NCBI GenBank assembly: GCA_000002435.2
Contig: AACB03000017.1
Reading direction: 5' to 3' (one strand)
Length of the DNA stretch: 10,211 nucleotides
Origin: Giardia intestinalis
Lineage: Eukaryota
Position numbers and translations under genes: made by a program. The notes beneath the pieces were generated by a model, which saw only the letters and a program-made list of their open reading frames with translations, had not been told where the DNA came from and made no database searches. Positions 1 through 10,061 of the stretch are shown in pieces (the stretch's first letter is position 1; every line of letters starts with the position of its first letter).

Positions 1-663
1 CTGTTTCCCCGGTCAACGAGGTGCGTCGATGGGCCAACCTGTCCTGGCATGCTGTTTCCCGGTCAACGAGGTGCGTCGATGGGCCTAGCTGGCCCGGAGT
101 CCCATTTCCCCGGTCAACGAGGTAGTCGATGGGCCTAGCTGGCCCGGAGTCCATTTCCCCGGTCAACGAGGTATGTCGATGGGCCAGCTGGCCGGCAGTC
201 TGTTCCCCGGTCAACGAGGTGCGTCGATGGGCCAACCTGTCCTGGCATGCTGTTTCCCCGGTCAACGAGGTGCGTCGATGGGCCTAGCGGCCCGGAGTCC
301 CATTTCCCGGTCAACGAGGTGCGTCGATGGGCCTAGCTGGCCCGGAGTCCCATTTTCCCCGGTCAACGAGGTGCGTCGATGGGCCAACCTGTCCTGGCAT
401 GCTGTTTCCCCGGTCAACGAGGTGCGTCGATGGGCCTAGCTGGCCCGGAGTCCCATTTCCCCGGTCAACGAGGTATGTCGATGGGCCTAGCTGGCCCGGA
501 GTCCCATTTCCCGGTCAACGAGGTGCGTCGATGGGCCAACCTGTCCTGGCATGCTGTTTCCCCGGTCAACGAGGTGCGTCGATGGGCCTAGCTGGCCCGG
601 AGTCCCATTTCCCCGGTCAACGAGGTGCGCGATGGGCCTAGCTGCCCGGAGTCCCATTTCCCC

Positions 664-714
664 GGTCAACGAGGTGCGTCGATGGGCCAACCTGTCCTGG
701 CATGCTGTTTCCCC
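664..714. repeat. Representative subfamily-A unit (variable block 'ccaacctgtcctggcatgctgtt')
   Basis: 'ggtcaacgaggtgcgtcgatgggccaacctgtcctggcatgctgtttcccc'. This is the majority type, roughly 95 of about 148 units by hand count. Confidence 0.9.
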
Positions 715-1564
715 GGTCAACGAGGTGCGTCGATGGGCCTAGCTGGCCCGGAGTCCATTTCCCGGTCAACGAGGTGCGTCGATGGGCCAACCTGTCCTGG
801 CATGCTGTTCCCCGGTCAACGAGGTGCGTCGATGGGCCAACCTGTCCTGGCATGCTGTTTCCCCGGTCAACGAGGTGCGTCGATGGGCCTAGCTGGCCCG
901 GCATCTTTTCCCCGGTCAACGAGGTGCGTCGATGGGCCAACCTGTCCTGGCATGCTGTTCCCCGGTCAACGAGGTATGTCGATGGGCCAACCTGTCCTGG
1001 CATGCTGTTTCCCCGGTCAACGAGGTGCGTCGATGGGCCAACTGCCCGGCATCTTTCCCCGGTCAACGAGGTATGTCGATGGGCCAACCTGTCCTGGCAT
1101 GCTGTTTCCCCGGTCAACGAGGTGCGTCGATGGGCCAACCTGTCCTGGCATGCTGTTTCCCCGGTCAACGAGGTGCGTCGATGGGCCTAGCTGGCCCGGA
1201 GTCCCATTTCCCCGGTCAACGAGGTATGTCGATGGGCCTAGCTGGCCCGGAGCCCATTTCCCCGGTCAACGAGGTGCGTCGATGGGCCAACCTGTCCTGG
1301 CATGCTGTTTCCCCGGTCAACGAGGTGCGTCGATGGGCCTAGCTGGCCCGGAGTCCCATTTCCCCGGTCAACGAGGTATGTCGATGGGCCTAGCTGGCCC
1401 GGAGTCCATTTCCCCGGTCAACGAGGTGCGTCGATGGGCCTAGCTGGCCGGAGTCCCTTTCCCCGGTCAACGAGGTGTCGATGGGCCTAGCTGGCCCGGA
1501 GTCCCATTTCCCCGGTCAACGAGGTGCGTCGATGGGCCAACCTGTCCTGGCATGCTGTTTCCCC

Positions 1565-1615
1565 GGTCAACGAGGTGCGTCGATGGGCCTAGCTGGCCCG
1601 GAGTCCCATTTCCCC
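1565..1615. repeat. Representative subfamily-B unit (variable block 'cctagctggcccggagtcccatt')
   Basis: 'ggtcaacgaggtgcgtcgatgggcctagctggcccggagtcccatttcccc'. It has the same 28-bp core. The 23-bp block differs from A at about 9 of 23 positions and is colinear, so it is a diverged version and not an insertion. Confidence 0.9.
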
Positions 1616-1766
1616 GGTCAACGAGGTATGTCGATGGGCCTAGCTGGCCCGGAGTCCCATTTCCCCGGTCAACGAGGTATCGATGGGCCTAGCTGGCCCG
1701 GAGTCCCATTTCCCCGGTCAACGAGGTGCGTCGATGGGCCAACCTGTCCTGGCATGCTGTTTCCCC

Positions 1767-2782
1767 GGTCAACGAGGTGCGTCGATGGGCCTAGCTGGCC
1801 CGGAGTCCCATTTCCCCGGTCAACGAGGTGCGTCGATGGGCCAACCTGTCCTGGCATGCTGTTTCCCCGGTCAACGAGGTGCGTCGATGGGCCAACCTGT
1901 CCTGGCATGCTGTTTCCCCGGTCAACGAGGTGCGTCGATGGGCCTAGCTGGCCCGGAGTCCCATTTCCCCGGTCAACGAGGTGCGTCGATGGGCCAACCT
2001 GTCCTGGCATGCTGTTTCCCCGGTCAACGAGGTGCGTCGATGGGCCAACCTGTCCTGGCATGCTGTTTCCCCGGTCAACGAGGTGCGTCGATGGGCCAAC
2101 CTGTCCTGGCATGCTGTTTCCCCGGTCAACGAGGTGCGTCGATGGGCCAACCTGTCCTGGCATGCTGTTTCCCCGGTCAACGAGGTGTCGATGGGCCAAC
2201 CTGTCCTGGCATGCTGTTTCCCCGGTCAACGAGGTGCGTCGATGGGCCAACCTGTCCTGGCATGCTGTTTCCCCGGTCAACGAGGTGCGTCGATGGGCCT
2301 AGCTGGCCCGGAGTCCCATTTCCCCGGTCAACGAGGTGCGTCGATGGGCCAACCTGTCCTGGCATGCTGTTTCCCCGGTCAACGAGGTGCGTCGATGGGC
2401 CAACCTGTCCTGGCATGCTGTTTCCCCGGTCAACGAGGTGCGTCGATGGGCCTAGCTGGCCCGGAGTCCCATTTCCCCGGTCAACGAGGTGCGTCGATGG
2501 GCCAACCTGTCCTGGCATGCTGTTTCCCCGGTCAACGAGGTGCGTCGATGGGCCAACCTGTCCTGGCATGCTGTTTCCCCGGTCAACGAGGTGCGTCGAT
2601 GGGCCAACCTGTCCTGGCATGCTGTTTCCCCGGTCAACGAGGTGCGTCGATGGGCCAACCTGTCCTGGCATGCTGTTTCCCCGGTCAACGAGGTGTCGAT
2701 GGGCCAACCTGTCCTGGCATGCTGTTTCCCCGGTCAACGAGGTGCGTCGATGGGCCAACCTGTCCTGGCATGCTGTTTCCCC
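1767..2782. repeat. Two tandem copies of a ~508-bp, 10-unit higher-order repeat (unit order B A A B A A A A A(48-bp deletion variant) A)
   Basis: Units starting at 1767 and at 2275 have the same order of unit types, including the same rare 48-bp 'ggtgtcgatggg' variant at the ninth position (about 2175 and about 2683). The offset is 508 bp, which is 9x51 plus the shortened unit within 1 bp. The ORF track shows identical 203-aa and 78-aa translations offset by 508 (1669..2280 vs 2177..2788, and 1944..2180 vs 2452..2688). Confidence 0.8.
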
Positions 2783-5700
2783 GGTCAACGAGGTGTCGAT
2801 GGGCCAACCTGTCCTGGCATGCTGTTTCCCCGGTCAACGAGGTGCGTCGATGGGCCAACCTGTCCTGGCATGCTGTTTCCCCGGTCAACGAGGTGCGTCG
2901 ATGGGCCTAGCTGGCCCGGAGTCCCATTTCCCCGGTCAACGAGGTGCGTCGATGGGCCAACCTGTCCTGGCATGCTGTTTCCCCGGTCAACGAGGTATCG
3001 ATGGGCCAACCTGTCCTGGCATGCTGTTTCCCCGGTCAACGAGGTGCGTCGATGGGCCAACCTGTCCTGGCATGCTGTTTCCCCGGTCAACGAGGTGCGT
3101 CGATGGGCCAACCTGTCCTGGCATGCTGTTTCCCCGGTCAACGAGGTGCGTCGATGGGCCAACCTGTCCTGGCATGCTGTTTCCCCGGTCAACGAGGTAT
3201 GTCGATGGGCCTAGCTGGCCCGGAGTCCCATTTCCCCGGTCAACGAGGTATGTCGATGGGCCAACCTGTCCTGGCATGCTGTTTCCCCGGTCAACGAGGT
3301 GCGTCGATGGGCCAACCTGTCCTGGCATGCTGTTTCCCCGGTCAACGAGGTGTCGATGGGCCAACCTGTCCTGGCATGCTGTTTCCCCGGTCAACGAGGT
3401 GCGTCGATGGGCCAACCTGTCCTGGCATGCTGTTTCCCCGGTCAACGAGGTGCGTCGATGGGCCAACCTGTCCTGGCATGCTGTTTCCCCGGTCAACGAG
3501 GTATGTCGATGGGCCTAGCTGGCCCGGAGTCCCATTTCCCCGGTCAACGAGGTGCGTCGATGGGCCAACCTGTCCTGGCATGCTGTTTCCCCGGTCAACG
3601 AGGTGCGTCGATGGGCCAACCTGTCCTGGCATGCTGTTTCCCCGGTCAACGAGGTGTCGATGGGCCTAGCTGGCCCGGAGTCCCATTTCCCCGGTCAACG
3701 AGGTGCGTCGATGGGCCTAGCTGGCCGGAGTCCCATTTCCCCGGTCAACGAGGTATGTCGATGGGCCTAGCTGGCCCGGAGTCCCATTTCCCCGGTCAAC
3801 GAGGTGCGTCGATGGGCCAACCTGTCCTGGCATGCTGTTTCCCCGGTCAACGAGGTGCGTCGATGGGCCTAGCTGGCCCGGAGTCCCATTTCCCCGGTCA
3901 ACGAGGTGCGTCGATGGGCCAACCTGTCCTGGCATGCTGTTTCCCCGGTCAACGAGGTGCGTCGATGGGCCAACCTGTCCTGGCATGCTGTTTCCCCGGT
4001 CAACGAGGTGCGTCGATGGGCCAACCTGTCCTGGCATGCTGTTCCCCGGTCAACGAGGTGCGTCGATGGGCCAACCTGTCCTGGCATGCTGTTTCCCCGG
4101 TCAACGAGGTATGTCGATGGGCCTAGCTGGCCCGGAGTCCCATTTCCCCGGTCAACGAGGTGCGTCGATGGGCCAACCTGTCCTGGCATGCTGTTTCCCC
4201 GGTCAACGAGGTGCGTCGATGGGCCAACCTGTCCTGGCATGCTGTTTCCCCGGTCAACGAGGTGCGTCGATGGGCCAACCTGTCCTGGCATGCTGTTTCC
4301 CCGGTCAACGAGGTATGTCGATGGGCCTAGCTGGCCCGGAGTCCCATTTCCCCGGTCAACGAGGTGCGTCGATGGGCCAACCTGTCCTGGCATGCTGTTT
4401 CCCCGGTCAACGAGGTGCGTCGATGGGCCAACCTGTCCTGGCATGCTGTTTCCCCGGTCAACGAGGTATGTCGATGGGCCTAGCTGGCCCGGAGTCCCAT
4501 TTCCCCGGTCAACGAGGTGCGTCGATGGGCCTAGCTGGCCCGGAGTCCCATTTCCCCGGTCAACGAGGTATGTCGATGGGCCTAGCTGGCCCGGAGTCCC
4601 ATTTCCCCGGTCAACGAGGTGCGTCGATGGGCCAACCTGTCCTGGCATGCTGTTTCCCCGGTCAACGAGGTGCGTCGATGGGCCTAGCTGGCCCGGAGTC
4701 CCATTTCCCCGGTCAACGAGGTGCGTCGATGGGCCAACCTGTCCTGGCATGCTGTTTCCCCGGTCAACGAGGTGCGTCGATGGGCCAACCTGTCCTGGCA
4801 TGCTGTTTCCCCGGTCAACGAGGTGCGTCGATGGGCCAACCTGTCCTGGCATGCTGTTTCCCCGGTCAACGAGGTGCGTCGATGGGCCAACCTGTCCTGG
4901 CATGCTGTTTCCCCGGTCAACGAGGTATGTCGATGGGCCTAGCTGGCCCGGAGTCCCATTTCCCCGGTCAACGAGGTGCGTCGATGGGCCAACCTGTCCT
5001 GGCATGCTGTTTCCCCGGTCAACGAGGTGCGTCGATGGGCCAACCTGTCCTGGCATGCTGTTTCCCCGGTCAACGAGGTATGTCGATGGGCCTAGCTGGC
5101 CCGGAGTCCCATTTCCCCGGTCAACGAGGTGCGTCGATGGGCCTAGCTGGCCCGGAGTCCCATTTCCCCGGTCAACGAGGTATGTCGATGGGCCTAGCTG
5201 GCCCGGAGTCCCATTTCCCCGGTCAACGAGGTGCGTCGATGGCCAACCTGTCCTGGCATGCGTTCCCGGTCACGAGGTGCGTCGATGGGCCAACCTGTCC
5301 TGGCATGCTGTTTCCCGGTCAACGAGGTGCGTCGATGGGCCAACCTGTCCTGGCATGCTGTTTCCCCGGTCAACGAGGTATGTCGATGGGCCTAGCTGGC
5401 CCGGAGTCCCATTTCCCCGGTCAACGAGGTGCGTCGATGGGCCAACCTGTCCTGGCATGCTGTTTCCCCGGTCACGAGGTCGCTAGCTGGCCCGGAGTCC
5501 CATTTCCCCGGTCAACGAGGTATGTCGATGGGCCTAGCTGGCCCGGAGTCCCATTTCCCCGGTCAACGAGGTGCGTCGATGGGCCAACCTGTCCTGGCAT
5601 GCTGTTTCCCCGGTCAACGAGGTGCGTCGATGGGCCAACCTGTCCTGGCATGCTGTTTCCCCGGTCAACGAGGTGCGTCGATGGGCCAACCTGTCCTGGC

Positions 5701-7538
5701 ATGCTGTTTCCCCGGTCAACGAGGTATGTCGATGGGCCTAGCTGGCCCGGAGTCCCATTTCCCCGGTCAACGAGGTGCGTCGATGGGCCAACCTGTCCTG
5801 GCATGCTGTTTCCCCGGTCAACGAGGTATGTCGATGGGCCTAGCTGGCCCGGAGTCCCATTTCCCCGGTCAACGAGGTGCGTCGATGGGCCAACCTGTCC
5901 TGGCATGCTGTTTCCCCGGTCAACGAGGTGCGTCGATGGGCCAACCTGTCCTGGCATGCTGTTTCCCGGTCAACGAGGTATGTCGATGGGCCTAGCTGGC
6001 CCGGAGTCCCATTTCCCCGGTCAACGAGGTGCGTCGATGGGCCTAGCTGGCCCGGAGTCCCATTTCCCCGGTCAACGAGGTGCGTCGATGGGCCTAGCTG
6101 GCCCGGAGTCCCATTTCCCCGGTCAACGAGGTGCGTCGATGGGCCAACCTGTCCTGGCATGCTGTTTCCCCGGTCAACGAGGTGCGTCGATGGGCCAACC
6201 TGTCCTGGCATGCTGTTTCCCCGGTCAACGAGGTGCGTCGATGGGCCAACCTGTCCTGGCATGCTGTTTCCCCGGTCAACGAGGTATGTCGATGGGCCTA
6301 GCTGGCCCGGAGTCCCATTTCCCCGGTCAACGAGGTGCGTCGATGGGCCAACCTGTCCTGGCATGCTGTTTCCCCGGTCAACGAGGTATGTCGATGGGCC
6401 AACCTGTCCTGGCATGCTGTTTCCCCGGTCAACGAGGTGCGTCGATGGGCCAACCTGTCCTGGCATGCTGTTTCCCCGGTCAACGAGGTGCGTCGATGGG
6501 CCAACCTGTCCTGGCATGCTGTTTCCCCGGTCAACGAGGTATGTCGATGGGCCAACCTGTCCTGGCATGCTGTTTCCCCGGTCAACGAGGTGCGTCGATG
6601 GGCCAACCTGTCCTGGCATGCTGTTTCCCCGGTCAACGAGGTATGTCGATGGGCCAACCTGTCCTGGCATGCTGTTTCCCCGGTCAACGAGGTATGTCGA
6701 TGGGCCTAGCTGGCCCGGAGTCCCATTTCCCCGGTCAACGAGGTATGTCGATGGGCCTAGCTGGCCCGGAGTCCCATTTCCCCGGTCAACGAGGTGCGTC
6801 GATGGGCCAACCTGTCCTGGCATGCTGTTTCCCCGGTCAACGAGGTGCGTCGATGGGCCAACCTGTCCTGGCATGCTGTTTCCCCGGTCAACGAGGTGCG
6901 TCGATGGGCCAACCTGTCCTGGCATGCTGTTTCCCCGGTCAACGAGGTATGTCGATGGGCCTAGCTGGCCCGGAGTCCCATTTCCCCGGTCAACGAGGTA
7001 TGTCGATGGGCCTAGCTGGCCCGGAGTCCCATTTCCCCGGTCAACGAGGTGCGTCGATGGGCCAACCTGTCCTGGCATGCTGTTTCCCCGGTCAACGAGG
7101 TGCGTCGATGGGCCAACCTGTCCTGGCATGCTGTTTCCCCGGTCAACGAGGTGCGTCGATGGGCCAACCTGTCCTGGCATGCTGTTTCCCCGGTCAACGA
7201 GGTGCGTCGATGGGCCAACCTGTCCTGGCATGCTGTTTCCCCGGTCAACGAGGTATGTCGATGGGCCAACCTGTCCTGGCATGCTGTTTCCCCGGTCAAC
7301 GAGGTGCGTCGATGGGCCAACCTGTCCTGGCATGCTGTTTCCCCGGTCAACGAGGTGCGTCGATGGGCCAACCTGTCCTGGCATGCTGTTTCCCCGGTCA
7401 ACGAGGTGCGTCGATGGGCCAACCTGTCCTGGCATGCTGTTTCCCCGGTCAACGAGGTGCGTCGATGGGCCAACCTGTCCTGGCATGCTGTTTCCCCGGT
7501 CAACGAGGTGCGTCGATGGGCCAACCTGTCCTGGCATG

Positions 7539-9583
7539 ATATCTATCTGAGACTTATCATTACTATACTTAGGTGGCATATTATATGTTCCTTTAACTAG
7601 ATAATGATTCAGATTAGAAACATTTTGGGCTCCAATGTCATAATAGCTAGATTGCTGATTCTTTTGATGACTCACTGAATTTTGCATCAAGGAGCAATTG
7701 ACACCCTTATCAACAAGCACTTGATTAATTTCGCAAGTAGAACCATTGTGAATAAATGCACCATCGTTTAAATCTCCGCTTAGATTTGTAGACGGATCAG
7801 CTAATGATTTAACACTCAAATGCTCCTCTTTCCATGCTACATGGCTTGATTGCTGGCTTAGGACTTCCGCCTCCCTCTGCGATTCGTACTGCATACTGGG
7901 ATCTTTGGCTTGTAAAACACTTCTGTTGCTAAGGTAATTAAGCTCAGGTGTGTAACCACTTAATTGGCGTGTGTTTTCATTTGGCAAAGTATCATACAAT
8001 GTGCTATCTTTAACAGAGAAAAGAGAGCTGTTATCTCCCCTATACCCTTGCTGGTTAGATACGCTTAGCTCCCGAGCGCCGGAGATACTTATGGTATTGT
8101 AAGGTGTATTGTCTTCATGAGATAGCTCCTTCACAGTCTCGTTTTCTCCCGGTTCTGGGTTAACAAGTGTGCTATAGCTCAAACCCCGTGCATGAGACGC
8201 CGTGATGGTAACATCATAAGGTGCTGATGGTGAAACCTGTGAACGCACGGGAAGATTTGGATCCCAACAATAGCTATGATCATACGGTGATACTGCTGTT
8301 AGAGGGGTGTTTATTTCTGACGTACTAATGTCGGACCTATCTGGCTTCTGCATCAATGTATTCTTATACTCCGTTGTATTATAAGTTGCTCTCTTCGTTT
8401 GTCGTGTGTAATCAGTCATATCATGGATTGTCTCAGCCTTGTCGTCTGGGCGCGCAGGGAATGTGTCTCCTGGCTTTCCGTATGCATAGCTCAGTACGCG
8501 GGCGCTTTTTACTAAAATCGGCCCGTCATTTCTATAAGGCGTGAGCCCCATATCGCTTCCAACTAGATTAGTTTCCATATCAGAAAAGATATCCTTCTGT
8601 GTTTTCTCTTTGTAGTCTTTTACGAGTTTATTCTCGTCTAACAATTCTTCTCTTGTTTGTGCTACCTTCTCCAGTTTATCTTTCCAATAGTTAGCCCATG
8701 ATATGTCGTCAGAAATAGTGACGGGCAGTGTTCCTGAAGTAGTACTGAGAACATTCTGTGTGTCTCCAGCCACAATTGCTGTGGGCATTGTAGCCAGCAG
8801 TGTTGCATTAGGTGTAAGTGCTATCTTCTTAGTGTCTTCAGATAACTGTACTTGGTGATCAATTGCGGTTGATTTCCCCGGTTCTATTGAATTACTTACA
8901 TTCCTAAATAATGTCTGTAAATTGCTTGTTGCAGCGGCACTATATCCATAGTTCTCTGGGCAGGTATTACTGTAATCGTTAGATTTGAATGTCTGCTGCT
9001 GAGACTTTGTCGCTACTAATTGATCTTGTGGAGCAGGTTTCGAAGAAGCTAAGTTGCCATATTGAGATTGGTGTAATGGGACAGTGATAAGGGGGTCTTG
9101 CTGAGATTTCGTCCAGTATGCCGGTGCTTTGGAAACCTGGCTTCGTAGGCTTTCAAACGCGGAGGGGAGCTGAGGAGGAGGCACGATGGGGCCGTGCTCC
9201 TTCAAATAGTCACGGTACACAGACCATGCTTTATGTATTCGTGGATGCTTGAGTAACTCATCTGCAGGAGGACGACTCCTGGGGTTATGATCGAGAAGCA
9301 GATTAATTATTCTGGTTAGCTCTGCACTGTAGCCGTGATATGATGTCTTTACAAAGGAACTGAGAGATTGTATGGCTTCCTGCTTGTTGGCACATGTCTC
9401 TCTGTACCGGCGAAGCGTGCACATTTCGTGTAGTACACATCCTAACATGAACATGTCGACCTTCGCCCCATACTTATGCCCCAAGAGCATTTCAGGCGCC
9501 ATGTAAACATAATCGCCAACCTGTTCAGAGATCTCAGACGCCTGACTCAAAGAGACTGCTTGACGCATACCGCCTAAAACCAC
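7539..9583 (-). CDS. Segment 3 of NEK-like kinase homolog: activation segment, C-lobe (subdomains VII to XI) and a ~560-aa low-complexity tail; the open frame continues into the satellite to 5840
   Basis: The ORF-track entry 5840..9583 begins at a GTG, which is an ORF-caller artefact; the frame is open from the stop at 9593-9595. 'VVLGGMRQAVSLSQASEISEQVGDYVYMAPE' has A-P-E at 9491-9499. 'DMFMLGCVLHEMCTL' is subdomain IX, close to NEK 'GCVLYELCTL'. 'HNPRSRPPADELLKHPRI' is subdomain XI. The unique part ends at 7539, and the last unique codons read ...KSQIDI before the repeat. Confidence 0.75.
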
Positions 9584-9660
9584 GCTGTGTTGTTAGACAA
9601 GAATATGGTTTCTGGACGTATGTTTCGATGAATTACTATTCCGACTTCGGGACAATTCAA
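9574..9660 (-). other. Catalytic-loop segment of the same kinase, encoded in a different minus-strand frame: 'LNCPEVGIVIHRNIRPETIFLSNNTAWF'
   Basis: Hand translation of the minus strand between the two ORF-track ORFs. The H-R-N codons are at 9622-9630. They align to the kinase HRDLKPENIFL catalytic loop, with D->N, K->R and N->T. The segment is bounded by a stop immediately upstream (minus-strand 'taa' at plus 9661-9663) and 'tag' at 9574-9576, so it joins the flanking segments only if a 1-nt shift is assumed at each end. Confidence 0.6.
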
Positions 9661-10061
9661 TTATAAGGTGAATGTAGGTAGGCAAGCACATCGCAGAGCT
9701 GGGCAAGAACCATCCAAATAGTGCTTTCGTCATAGAGATGCGCAGCCTCAAATCTGTCAACGATTTGCTGCCGTAAGCTCTGGCTTAAATATGCATCCAT
9801 GAAGACATAGTACGTGTGGCGGAACTGGTCGTGGAAAACATTATGAATCTGAAGAATTCCTGGGTGCTGAAGTCTCTGTGTTAGTTGATACTGTCGATCT
9901 ACATGCTCTCGAAGAGTAGTTGCAGATTGAGTGTAGTCTATAACTTTGCAGACAACGTCGTGTGAGGTCCACGTATCGTGCGCCCAATGAATCCTAGAAT
10001 GCTGCCCATGGGTAAGAAGAGGCCCAAGGCGGTACCTATCCATCAGGAGAGTCGTGAGCAT
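9657..10061 (-). CDS. Exon/segment 1 of NEK (NIMA-related)-like protein kinase homolog: N-lobe, kinase subdomains I to VIa; frame is interrupted at its 3' end
   Basis: 134-aa ORF. 'YRLGPLLTHGQHSRI' aligns to the NEK G-loop region but lacks GxGxxG. 'VVCKVIDY' corresponds to the VAIK lysine plus the NEK-typical K-E-L-D-Y context. 'HPGILQIHNVF' is subdomain IV, 'YYVFMDAY' is the hinge, and 'LAQLCDVLAYLHS' is subdomain VIa. It is the first in-frame ATG after an upstream stop, 4 codons upstream. The ORF stops 'TGA' at 9657-9659 immediately before the catalytic loop. Confidence 0.8.
   Translation of the reverse strand: MLTTLLMDRYRLGPLLTHGQHSRIHWAHDTWTSHDVVCKVIDYTQSATTLREHVDRQYQLTQRLQHPGILQIHNVFHDQFRHTYYVFMDAYLSQSLRQQIVDRFEAAHLYDESTIWMVLAQLCDVLAYLHSPYN

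What the first reader, a model, noticed from the sequence alone, without database searches (positions are those of the whole stretch)
1767..5220. Higher-order repeat structure and recent multi-unit duplications inside the array
(i) Units starting at 1767 and 2275 form two adjacent copies of a ~508-bp 10-unit block with identical unit order, including the same rare 48-bp deletion unit in the ninth position. (ii) The 6-unit string atg-B, A, A, atg-B, gcg-B, atg-B occurs at 4303-4608 and again exactly 12 units (612 bp) later at 4915-5220. (iii) A 4-unit motif A A A atg-B recurs at least four times. Its identical 61-aa minus-strand translations are at 4123..4308, 5534..5719, 6094..6279 and 6757..6942. 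This indicates unequal crossing-over or segmental conversion operating on blocks of 4-12 units, so the array evolves as higher-order repeats and not only unit by unit.
Basis: seen in the sequence. Interest (0 to 1): 0.55.

Follow-up and report, generated by a model that had tools for sequence, protein, structure and literature searches.

The report
Block duplications in Giardia kinase repeat
The repeats are the 17-amino-acid coding tail of a Giardia Nek-type dead kinase, and the array does contain exact multi-unit duplications, which is ordinary minisatellite behaviour seen here in an error-prone long-read assembly.

Summary
Window 1-7538 is a single 51-bp array of 149 units, with 119 units letter-perfect copies of four variants. 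It is the 3' part of a minus-strand Giardia Nek pseudokinase gene, 82% identical to the assemblage E orthologue and 74% to assemblage B. Each unit encodes MPGQVGPSTHLVDRGNS or a variant.

All three sequence claims check out. The 508-bp blocks are identical. The 612-bp repeat is exact over 488 nt. These are the two longest self-matches in the array.

- The "48-bp" unit is 49 bp, a frameshifting 2-bp deletion that is probably a consensus error.
- The 4-unit motif is barely above chance.

Perfect tandem multi-unit blocks are enriched: 11 observed against about 3 in shuffles (P<0.0005). There is no array-wide period.

Orthologues support block-wise change. Assemblage B isolate GS_b has a perfect 2-unit higher-order repeat. 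B isolates differ by whole dimers.

Caveat: the assembly carries homopolymer deletions, including two in the conserved kinase domain. The array runs off the window, so unit order needs read-level confirmation.

Verdict: real but ordinary, a new member of a known kind.

The parts
1..7538 (-). 51-bp (17-codon) coding tandem array of 149 units that runs off the left end of the window. Units are four canonical variants, defined by His/Tyr at site 1 and S-M..V / G-T..L at site 2.
   Evidence: TRF reports period 51 and 149 copies. Unit listing. 119 units are letter-perfect copies of the four 51-mers. The in-frame translation is continuous with the kinase ORF. The same 17-aa repeat occurs in orthologues P0001, P0002 and P0003.
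1709..2795 (.). 10-unit (508-bp) exact tandem duplication. Blocks are 1757-2264 and 2265-2772, unit order B A A B A A A A X A, where X is the 49-bp unit.
   Evidence: This is the longest exact self-match in the array.
4143..5242 (.). 12-unit (612-bp) near-tandem duplication. 4143-4630 is identical to 4755-5242 (units 82-91 versus 94-103).
   Evidence: This is the second-longest exact self-match.
3692..5066 (.). 11-unit string BbABAAAAbAA present twice, 16 units apart (from about 3692 and about 4506). Together with the previous part it forms a local 12-unit higher-order block bBbABAAAAbAA at units 72-83, 88-99 and 100-103 (partial).
   Evidence: At base level, a 319-nt exact run at lag 815.
3946..4455 (.). 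4-unit tandem block AAAb AAAb AA (units 78-87), nested inside the 12-unit block.
6645..7203 (.). 5-unit tandem block bbAAA x2 (units 132-141).
   Evidence: A 304-nt exact run at lag 255 from 6645.
5243..5500 (.). Error-dense patch of four mangled units with 17 bases net missing. It starts exactly where the second copy of the 612-bp repeat ends. It may mark a mis-join or structural heterogeneity.
1..1756 (.). Low-quality end of the array. 17 of 35 units are not 51 bp. Features include homopolymer contractions and chimeric A/B units, for example at 151-198, 855-903 and 1005-1050.
7539..9583 (-). Non-repeat part of the gene: the kinase C-lobe (YMAPE, DMFMLGCVLHEM) followed by a linker of about 570 aa.
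   Evidence: Translation. Pfam Pkinase E=9e-14. 82% identical to P0001 and 74% to P0002 over 100% of the query.
9584..9659 (-). Catalytic-loop segment (IVIHRNIRPETIFLSNNTA) left in a third frame. Two 1-nt deletions near 9661 and 9581, relative to both orthologues, flank it.
   Evidence: Three-way DNA alignment. Sequence.
9657..10061 (-). Kinase N-lobe with the start codon at 10061 (MLTTLLMDRYRLGP...).
   Evidence: Pfam Pkinase E=7.5e-10. The N-terminus is identical to P0001 and P0002.

Best explanation
Positions 1-7538 are the C-terminal coding minisatellite of a Giardia Nek-family pseudokinase gene read on the minus strand. Each 51-bp unit encodes 17 residues (MPGQVGPSTHLVDRGNS). Only two sites vary. 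One is His/Tyr. The other is a linked block giving ..NS-MPGQV.. or ..NG-TPGQL... That yields four unit types.

The order of these types is not random. It contains exact tandem blocks of 3, 4, 5, 6, 10 and about 12 units. The most likely cause is out-of-register homologous repair between units: unequal sister-chromatid or inter-homologue exchange, SDSA, or replication slippage. This copies or deletes several units at once. Conversion keeps all units otherwise identical, and purifying selection preserves the peptide.

The result is a patchwork of local segmental duplications rather than a regular higher-order repeat.

Shown: block identities, their statistical excess, the coding frame, orthology, synonymous-only divergence, and block-wise structure and copy-number change in the orthologues.

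Inferred: the recombination mechanism; that the indel-bearing units are consensus errors; that the source is an assemblage-A-like isolate assembled from long reads.
For: Block identities: the exact 508-bp and 488-nt repeats are the two longest self-matches in the array.

Statistical excess:
- 11 perfect tandem multi-unit blocks against about 3 in order-0 and Markov-1 shuffles, P<0.0005.
- With deletion units merged, 12 against 4.4, P=0.0005.
- In the clean part alone (units 74-148), 6 against 2.7, P=0.03.
- Three repeats of 10 or more units against shuffles, P<=0.001 for the second and third.

Coding identity:
- The ORF runs from the kinase domain into 31 in-frame units.
- Pkinase matches.
- Orthologues are named Kinase, NEK (P15) and Ser/Thr kinase (assemblage B), and carry the same repeat.

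Selection on the peptide: the window's main unit and the P15 main unit differ at 7 of 51 nt, all synonymous.

Orthologue block structure:
- GS_b has a 102-bp period at 100% identity against 68% for the 51-bp period.
- B isolates have 3 versus 7 units, a difference of two dimers.
- P15 has a 152-bp period at 99%.

Spread by copying: Tyr is strongly linked to the B-type unit (Fisher P=1.7e-8). Variant types are regionally clustered, with the B fraction at 59%, 18% and 35% in three segments. Both are as expected if variants spread by local copying.
Against: - No constant period exists; only lag 12 stands out in the autocorrelation.
- Shuffled strings already give longest repeats of 8-9 units because type A dominates. 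4- and 6-unit matches are not above order-0 shuffles.
- Assembly quality is poor. There are homopolymer contractions and net deletions throughout. Half the units in 1-1756 are damaged. Two frameshifting deletions fall in the conserved kinase domain.
- The array runs off the window end.
- The second 612-bp copy abuts a mangled patch at 5243-5500.
- Both 508-bp copies share the same frame-breaking 2-bp deletion.
- No read data or second assembly of the same lineage was available.
Confidence: 0.62

Rival explanations
1. Assembly or polishing artefact. The array is real, but the specific long duplications, and perhaps much of the unit order and length, were created when noisy long reads were overlapped out of register in a near-identical array and then polished with ambiguously placed reads.
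For: - Homopolymer contractions (C4>C3, T3>T2, C3>C2) and net deletions occur all along the array. They rise sharply towards the window end: 17 of 35 units in 1-1756 are damaged.
- Chimeric A/B units are present.
- Two 1-nt deletions break the conserved kinase ORF.
- Ten site-1 deletions sit exactly on the dimorphic GCG/ATG site. GGTGTCG is what remains when the two discordant bases are dropped, as expected from a consensus of mixed reads.
- The same such deletion is in both 508-bp copies.
- The second 612-bp copy ends at 5242, where a mangled patch begins.
- A published Giardia PacBio assembly reports homopolymer frameshifts, gaps at long repeats and small repeat-rich leftover contigs (PMC7000408).
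Against: - The excess of tandem blocks is array-wide. It holds in the clean stretch and when deletion units are merged.
- Independent short arrays in other assemblies show perfect multi-unit periodicity and dimer-step copy-number differences.
- Mis-assembly of tandem arrays more often collapses than duplicates. This last point is general knowledge, not tested here.
Confidence: 0.28
2. Chance. With only four unit types and type A making up about 60% of units, repeated multi-unit strings arise without any block duplication.
For: - The longest repeated string in shuffles averages 7.9-8.6 units and reaches 11 or more in 2.5-9% of shuffles.
- Matching 4-unit and 6-unit pairs are not above order-0 shuffles.
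- With deletion units merged, the single best repeat has P=0.07-0.08.
Against: - Three independent repeats of 10 or more units: the second and third best have P<=0.001.
- Perfect tandem blocks: 11 against 3, P<0.0005 under two null models.
- Lags 508 and 612 stand well above every other lag.
Confidence: 0.05
3. Protein-level super-repeat. Selection for a structural period of several 17-aa units, rather than neutral recombinational turnover, maintains the multi-unit order.
For: The peptide is under purifying selection: 7 of 7 differences from P15 are synonymous. Strict 2-unit alternation in assemblage B and a 3-unit period in P15 and in the left part of this array (lag 3 z=2.0-2.4).
Against: - Block sizes differ within one array (3, 4, 5, 6, 10, 12 units) and between lineages (2, 3 units).
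- Long runs of a single type exist, such as units 139-148.
- No Pfam family matches the repeat.
Confidence: 0.05

Closest known systems
Intragenic coding minisatellites (VNTR genes) that change by unequal recombination. Examples are yeast FLO1 and other adhesins, human mucin VNTRs, and tandem-repeat antigens of Plasmodium and trypanosomatids (from general knowledge, not tested here).
   Same: The unit length is a multiple of three. Units are near-identical at the DNA level. Copy number differs between strains. Multi-unit blocks are duplicated. The repeat forms a long tail on a protein.
   Different: The host protein is a cytoplasmic-type Nek pseudokinase of Giardia, not a surface protein. No signal peptide or transmembrane segment was looked for here. 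Unit homogeneity is extreme, with no substitutions outside two dimorphic sites.
Higher-order repeats of satellite DNA, such as primate alpha satellite (general knowledge).
   Same: Blocks of several monomers are more alike than neighbouring monomers. The structure is explained by out-of-register exchange and conversion.
   Different: The array is coding. There is no constant period across it; blocks are local and of different sizes. Only four monomer types exist. The assemblage B orthologue, a perfect 2-unit period, is the closer analogue.
Giardia Nek kinase expansion (Manning et al. 2011, PMC3218828).
   Same: The protein has a Pkinase domain. Its orthologue is annotated 'Kinase, NEK'. The catalytic Asp is lost (HRN for HRD, LGG for DFG), as in the 71% of Giardia Neks that lack key residues. 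In the orthologous loci the gene lies in a tandem cluster of kinase genes.
   Different: It has no ankyrin or coiled-coil hits. Instead it has a linker of about 570 aa and a very long 17-aa repeat tail. No protein in the collections searched carries the long form.

Membership tests
Higher-order repeat (HOR) array | Monomeric tandem periodicity | tested here: met
   Period 51, 149 copies.
Higher-order repeat (HOR) array | Multi-monomer blocks more alike than adjacent monomers, beyond chance | tested here: met
   Exact blocks of 10 and about 12 units. 11 perfect tandem blocks against about 3 in shuffles, P<0.0005.
Higher-order repeat (HOR) array | One constant multi-monomer period across the array | tested here: not met
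   In the autocorrelation only lag 12 reaches z=3.7. Block sizes of 3, 4, 5, 6, 10 and 12 coexist. The feature is met in the assemblage B orthologue, with a 102-bp period at 100%.
Coding minisatellite / VNTR gene | Unit length a multiple of 3 and translated in frame with the flanking gene | tested here: met
   51 bp equals 17 codons. The ORF runs from the kinase into 31 units. The same peptide repeat is in frame in three orthologues. Divergence from the P15 unit is synonymous only.
Coding minisatellite / VNTR gene | Uninterrupted reading frame through the whole array | tested here: inconclusive
   The frame breaks at about 5958 and at later indels. These look like assembly errors: homopolymer contractions, which are also present in the kinase domain. 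That was not proven.
Coding minisatellite / VNTR gene | Copy number varies between strains | tested here: met
   Assemblage B has 3 units (BAH15c1 and an ENA record) versus 7 units (GS_b). P15 has about 6. This window has at least 149. The short-read assemblies may be collapsed.
Giardia Nek kinase family | Protein kinase domain, and orthology to proteins annotated as Nek | tested here: met
   Pfam PF00069 matches on both halves. 82% identity to EFO64379.1 'Kinase, NEK [Giardia lamblia P15]'. Nek subfamily placement by phylogeny was not done.
Giardia Nek kinase family | Catalytic residues K72, D166 and D184 (active versus pseudokinase) | tested here: not met
   HRN replaces HRD, and LGG replaces DFG. 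The Lys in VVCKV is present. The protein is therefore predicted inactive, like most Giardia Neks (PMC3218828).

The most novel reading that the evidence does not exclude
The array may be a real lineage-specific expansion, at least 149 units and 7.5 kb against 3-7 units in assemblage B and about 6 in P15. It encodes a conserved 17-aa repeat in a catalytically dead Giardia Nek, giving a protein of more than 3,300 aa that is missing from the protein collections searched. Its block-structured unit order would then be a high-resolution strain marker. It would also record recombination and conversion among the four genome copies of a binucleate, supposedly asexual parasite.
Probability: 0.45. Interest if true: 0.4.

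Novelty: new member of a known kind. Interest (0 to 1): 0.22.

Why it matters
In practice, this locus is a clear case where an annotated gene model depends entirely on how a tandem array was assembled. The P15 protein ends in an out-of-frame artefact. The B proteins have 3 or 7 repeats. The long form here is broken by indel errors and is not in the protein collections searched.

Biologically, a conserved 17-residue repeat, with only synonymous differences between lineages, expanded to at least 149 copies on a dead kinase suggests a scaffold or filament-like role worth testing.

The block-wise unit order could also serve as a hypervariable typing marker, and as evidence on mitotic recombination in Giardia.

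As a statement about repeat evolution it adds nothing new. Multi-unit duplication by unequal exchange is the textbook behaviour of minisatellites.

Tried and rejected
- Repeat-only protein search in the indexed collection found nothing, although P0001 and P0003 contain the repeat. This null is a limit of the method.
- The exhaustive HMMER search of 1.84 billion representatives gave a 3,588-aa top hit. It is a Drosophila futsch-like protein with an unrelated GPSSTHLQD repeat, so it was rejected. The only true relative was P0002.
- The N-lobe search returned 'no candidate' although P0001 shares the first 36 residues, so it was uninformative.
- Exact-product look-ups for three ORFs of the window are not on record. 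The source assembly could not be identified and no DNA beyond the left end was obtained.
- The metagenome scan for the 51-bp unit gave 0 matches. The metagenome protein scan found only a distant kinase at 39% identity.
- Treating the long + strand ORFs in the array (such as 3832-7539) as genes was rejected. The orthologues fix the minus-strand frame.
- Treating the gap between the N-lobe and C-lobe ORFs as an intron was rejected. The missing catalytic loop lies in the third frame, and the orthologues are colinear apart from two 1-nt gaps.
- My first per-unit edit tabulation and my first attempt to count exact canonical units (the second table) were out of phase and were discarded. The count was redone correctly. 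The unit-length table was unaffected and is used.
Full report
**What is there**

TRF finds one array, 1-7538, with period 51 and 149 copies. It is 63% G+C against 40-49% in the flank, and it runs off the left end of the window.

Listing the units shows very little real variation:
- Site 1 is GCG or ATG.
- Site 2 is a linked 19-nt block, AACCTGTCCTGGCATGCTG (type A) or TAGCTGGCCCGGAGTCCCA (type B).

119 of the 149 units are letter-perfect copies of the four resulting 51-mers: hA 74, yB 21, hB 17, yA 7. Every other unit differs only by indels, almost all of them deletions.

**It is coding, on the minus strand**

An ORF starting at 9583 runs through 681 non-repeat residues into 31 in-frame units reading MPGQVGPSTHLVDRGNS / TPGQLGPSTYLVDRGNG. 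The non-repeat part begins with a protein-kinase C-lobe. The ORF 10061-9657 is the N-lobe (Pfam Pkinase).

The best relatives are:
- EFO64379.1 'Kinase, NEK [Giardia lamblia P15]', 82% identity.
- KWX12190.1 from Giardia assemblage B, 74% identity.

Both cover the whole query. The E and B orthologues are 74% identical to each other. The window's lineage is therefore sister to assemblage E, which makes it probably assemblage A. That is an inference, because no A protein was retrieved.

All three orthologues end in the same 17-aa repeat. This fixes the coding frame.

The catalytic loop reads HRN for HRD, and LGG replaces DFG. The protein is therefore predicted to be a pseudokinase, like 71% of Giardia Neks (PMC3218828).

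The window's main unit and P15's main unit differ at 7 of 51 nt, all synonymous. The peptide is therefore under purifying selection.

**Checking the three claims**

(i) 1767-2274 and 2275-2782 are identical. Exact identity at lag 508 runs 579 nt from 1709. The odd unit is 49 bp (a 2-bp deletion), not 48.

(ii) 4303-4608 equals 4915-5220. The exact match is in fact 488 nt long, 4143-4630 against 4755-5242.

(iii) The four segments are identical.

A scan of every lag shows that lags 508 and 612 give the two longest exact self-matches in the array. Nothing else exceeds 325 nt.

- An 11-unit string repeated 16 units apart.
- A nested 4-unit tandem block.
- A 5-unit tandem block, bbAAA x2.

Units 72-103 read as a local 12-unit block, bBbABAAAAbAA, about 2.5 times. 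One copy carries an internal AbAA duplication.

**Is it more than chance?**

Type A makes up about 60% of units, so shuffled unit strings already contain repeats of 8-9 units. 4-unit matches are at chance (155 pairs against 186 and 130), and 6-unit pairs are not above order-0 shuffles. The AAAb motif occurs 8 times against 4.3 expected (P=0.03, post hoc). Claim (iii) therefore carries little weight.

The long repeats are a different matter:
- Having three of them is rare in shuffles. P<=0.001 for the second and third best, and 0.017-0.03 for the best.
- Perfect tandem blocks of 3 or more units number 11, against about 3 expected. P<0.0005 under both order-0 and Markov-1 shuffles.
- With the deletion units merged into their parent types the count is 12 against 4.4 (P=0.0005).
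- In the clean stretch alone, units 74-148, it is 6 against 2.7 (P=0.03).

Autocorrelation shows no array-wide period; only lag 12 reaches z=3.7. The picture is local segmental duplications of various sizes, not a regular higher-order repeat.

Tyr at site 1 is strongly tied to type B (Fisher P=1.7e-8). The B fraction differs by region, at 59%, 18% and 35%. Both fit variants spreading by local copying.

**Independent support from the orthologues**
- GS_b (assemblage B, locus L003): the array has a 102-bp period at 100% identity over 3.2 copies, while the 51-bp period is only 68%. This is a textbook 2-unit higher-order repeat.
- Other B isolates have 3 units instead of 7, a difference of exactly two dimers.
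- P15 (locus L001): about 6 units with a 152-bp (3-unit) period at 99%.
- The S-M versus G-T/G unit dimorphism is shared by all three lineages, so it predates their split.

**Why the assembly must be distrusted**

The non-canonical units are homopolymer contractions (C4>C3, T3>T2, C3>C2), 2-bp deletions at the dimorphic site 1, and A/B chimeras. They are concentrated at 1-1756, where 17 of 35 units are affected, and at 5211-5500.

The unique region is also affected. Compared with both orthologues, the window lacks one base near 9661 (an A-run on the gene strand) and one near 9581. This splits a conserved kinase domain into three frames.

The recurrent GGTGTCG form is exactly what is left when the two bases that differ between GCG and ATG are dropped. 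I therefore read these '49-bp units' as consensus artefacts at places where reads carrying His and Tyr units were mixed. That is an inference. It would also explain why both 508-bp copies carry the same lesion.

The second 612-bp copy ends at 5242, where the mangled patch begins. This could mark a mis-join or structural heterogeneity among genome copies.

A published Giardia PacBio assembly reports homopolymer frameshifts, gaps at long repeats and small repeat-rich leftover contigs (PMC7000408). [quoted passage not shown]

No reads and no second assembly of this lineage could be obtained.

**Is the long form known?**

The 681-aa query found only the E and B clusters. An exhaustive HMMER search with 14 repeat units against 1.84 billion representatives found only the B orthologue as a true relative. 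The top hit is a Drosophila futsch-like protein with an unrelated repeat. The long-array protein is therefore not in those collections.

**Verdict**

Multi-unit block duplication is statistically real in this sequence and is mirrored in the orthologues. However, there is no regular higher-order repeat, and the two headline duplications need read-level confirmation.

This is ordinary minisatellite behaviour in a newly noticed locus. I estimate the probabilities at 0.62 for real block-wise turnover, 0.28 for assembly artefact behind the specific long duplications, 0.05 for chance and 0.05 for a selected protein super-repeat.

Noticed in passing
window about 9661 and about 9581 (also about 10094 in the 5' leader): Single-base deletions relative to both orthologues split the conserved kinase domain into three reading frames. 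One lies in an A-run. They are either long-read consensus errors or a very recent pseudogene.
   Followed up: partly
window 5243-5500: An isolated error-dense patch of four mangled units, with 17 bases net missing, sits in an otherwise clean stretch. It begins exactly where the second copy of the 612-bp repeat ends.
   Followed up: partly
window 151-198, 855-903, 1005-1050: These units are chimeras of the A and B site-2 blocks, for example TAGCTGGCCCGGCATCTTTT. That is expected from a consensus of misregistered reads.
   Followed up: no
window 1-7538, site 1 of each unit: Ten units carry a deletion exactly at the GCG/ATG dimorphic site (6x GGTGTCG, 2x GGTATCG, and others), although no homopolymer is there. 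Tyr (ATG) is strongly associated with B-type units (Fisher P=1.7e-8).
   Followed up: partly
L001 8641-8850 (P15, ACVC01000096.1): One unit in the P15 assembly is 50 bp. The last 60 or so residues of the annotated protein EFO64379.1 (HRARWVRPRTSLIGETAC...) are therefore an out-of-frame reading of the same repeat. The contig ends about 140 bp after the array.
   Followed up: partly
L001 1-6000; L002 1-6000: In the orthologous loci the gene is the last of at least five tandem kinase genes on the same strand. The window holds only 150 bp upstream, so this could not be checked here.
   Followed up: no
window 7488-7545: The first unit next to unique sequence is already a canonical A unit (..QIDI-MPGQVGPST..). 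In P15 and assemblage B the first unit is degenerate (TLGQLGPST / ALIQLAPST). Homogenisation has therefore reached the 5' edge of the array in this lineage.
   Followed up: no
window 3832-7539 (+), 3869-5056 (-) and other long ORFs inside the array: Long ORFs in several frames and on both strands are by-products of a stop-free repeat unit. Only the minus-strand frame that continues from the kinase is supported by the orthologues.
   Followed up: yes
window 7539 boundary: G+C drops abruptly from about 63% in the array to 40-49% in the rest of the gene.
   Followed up: no
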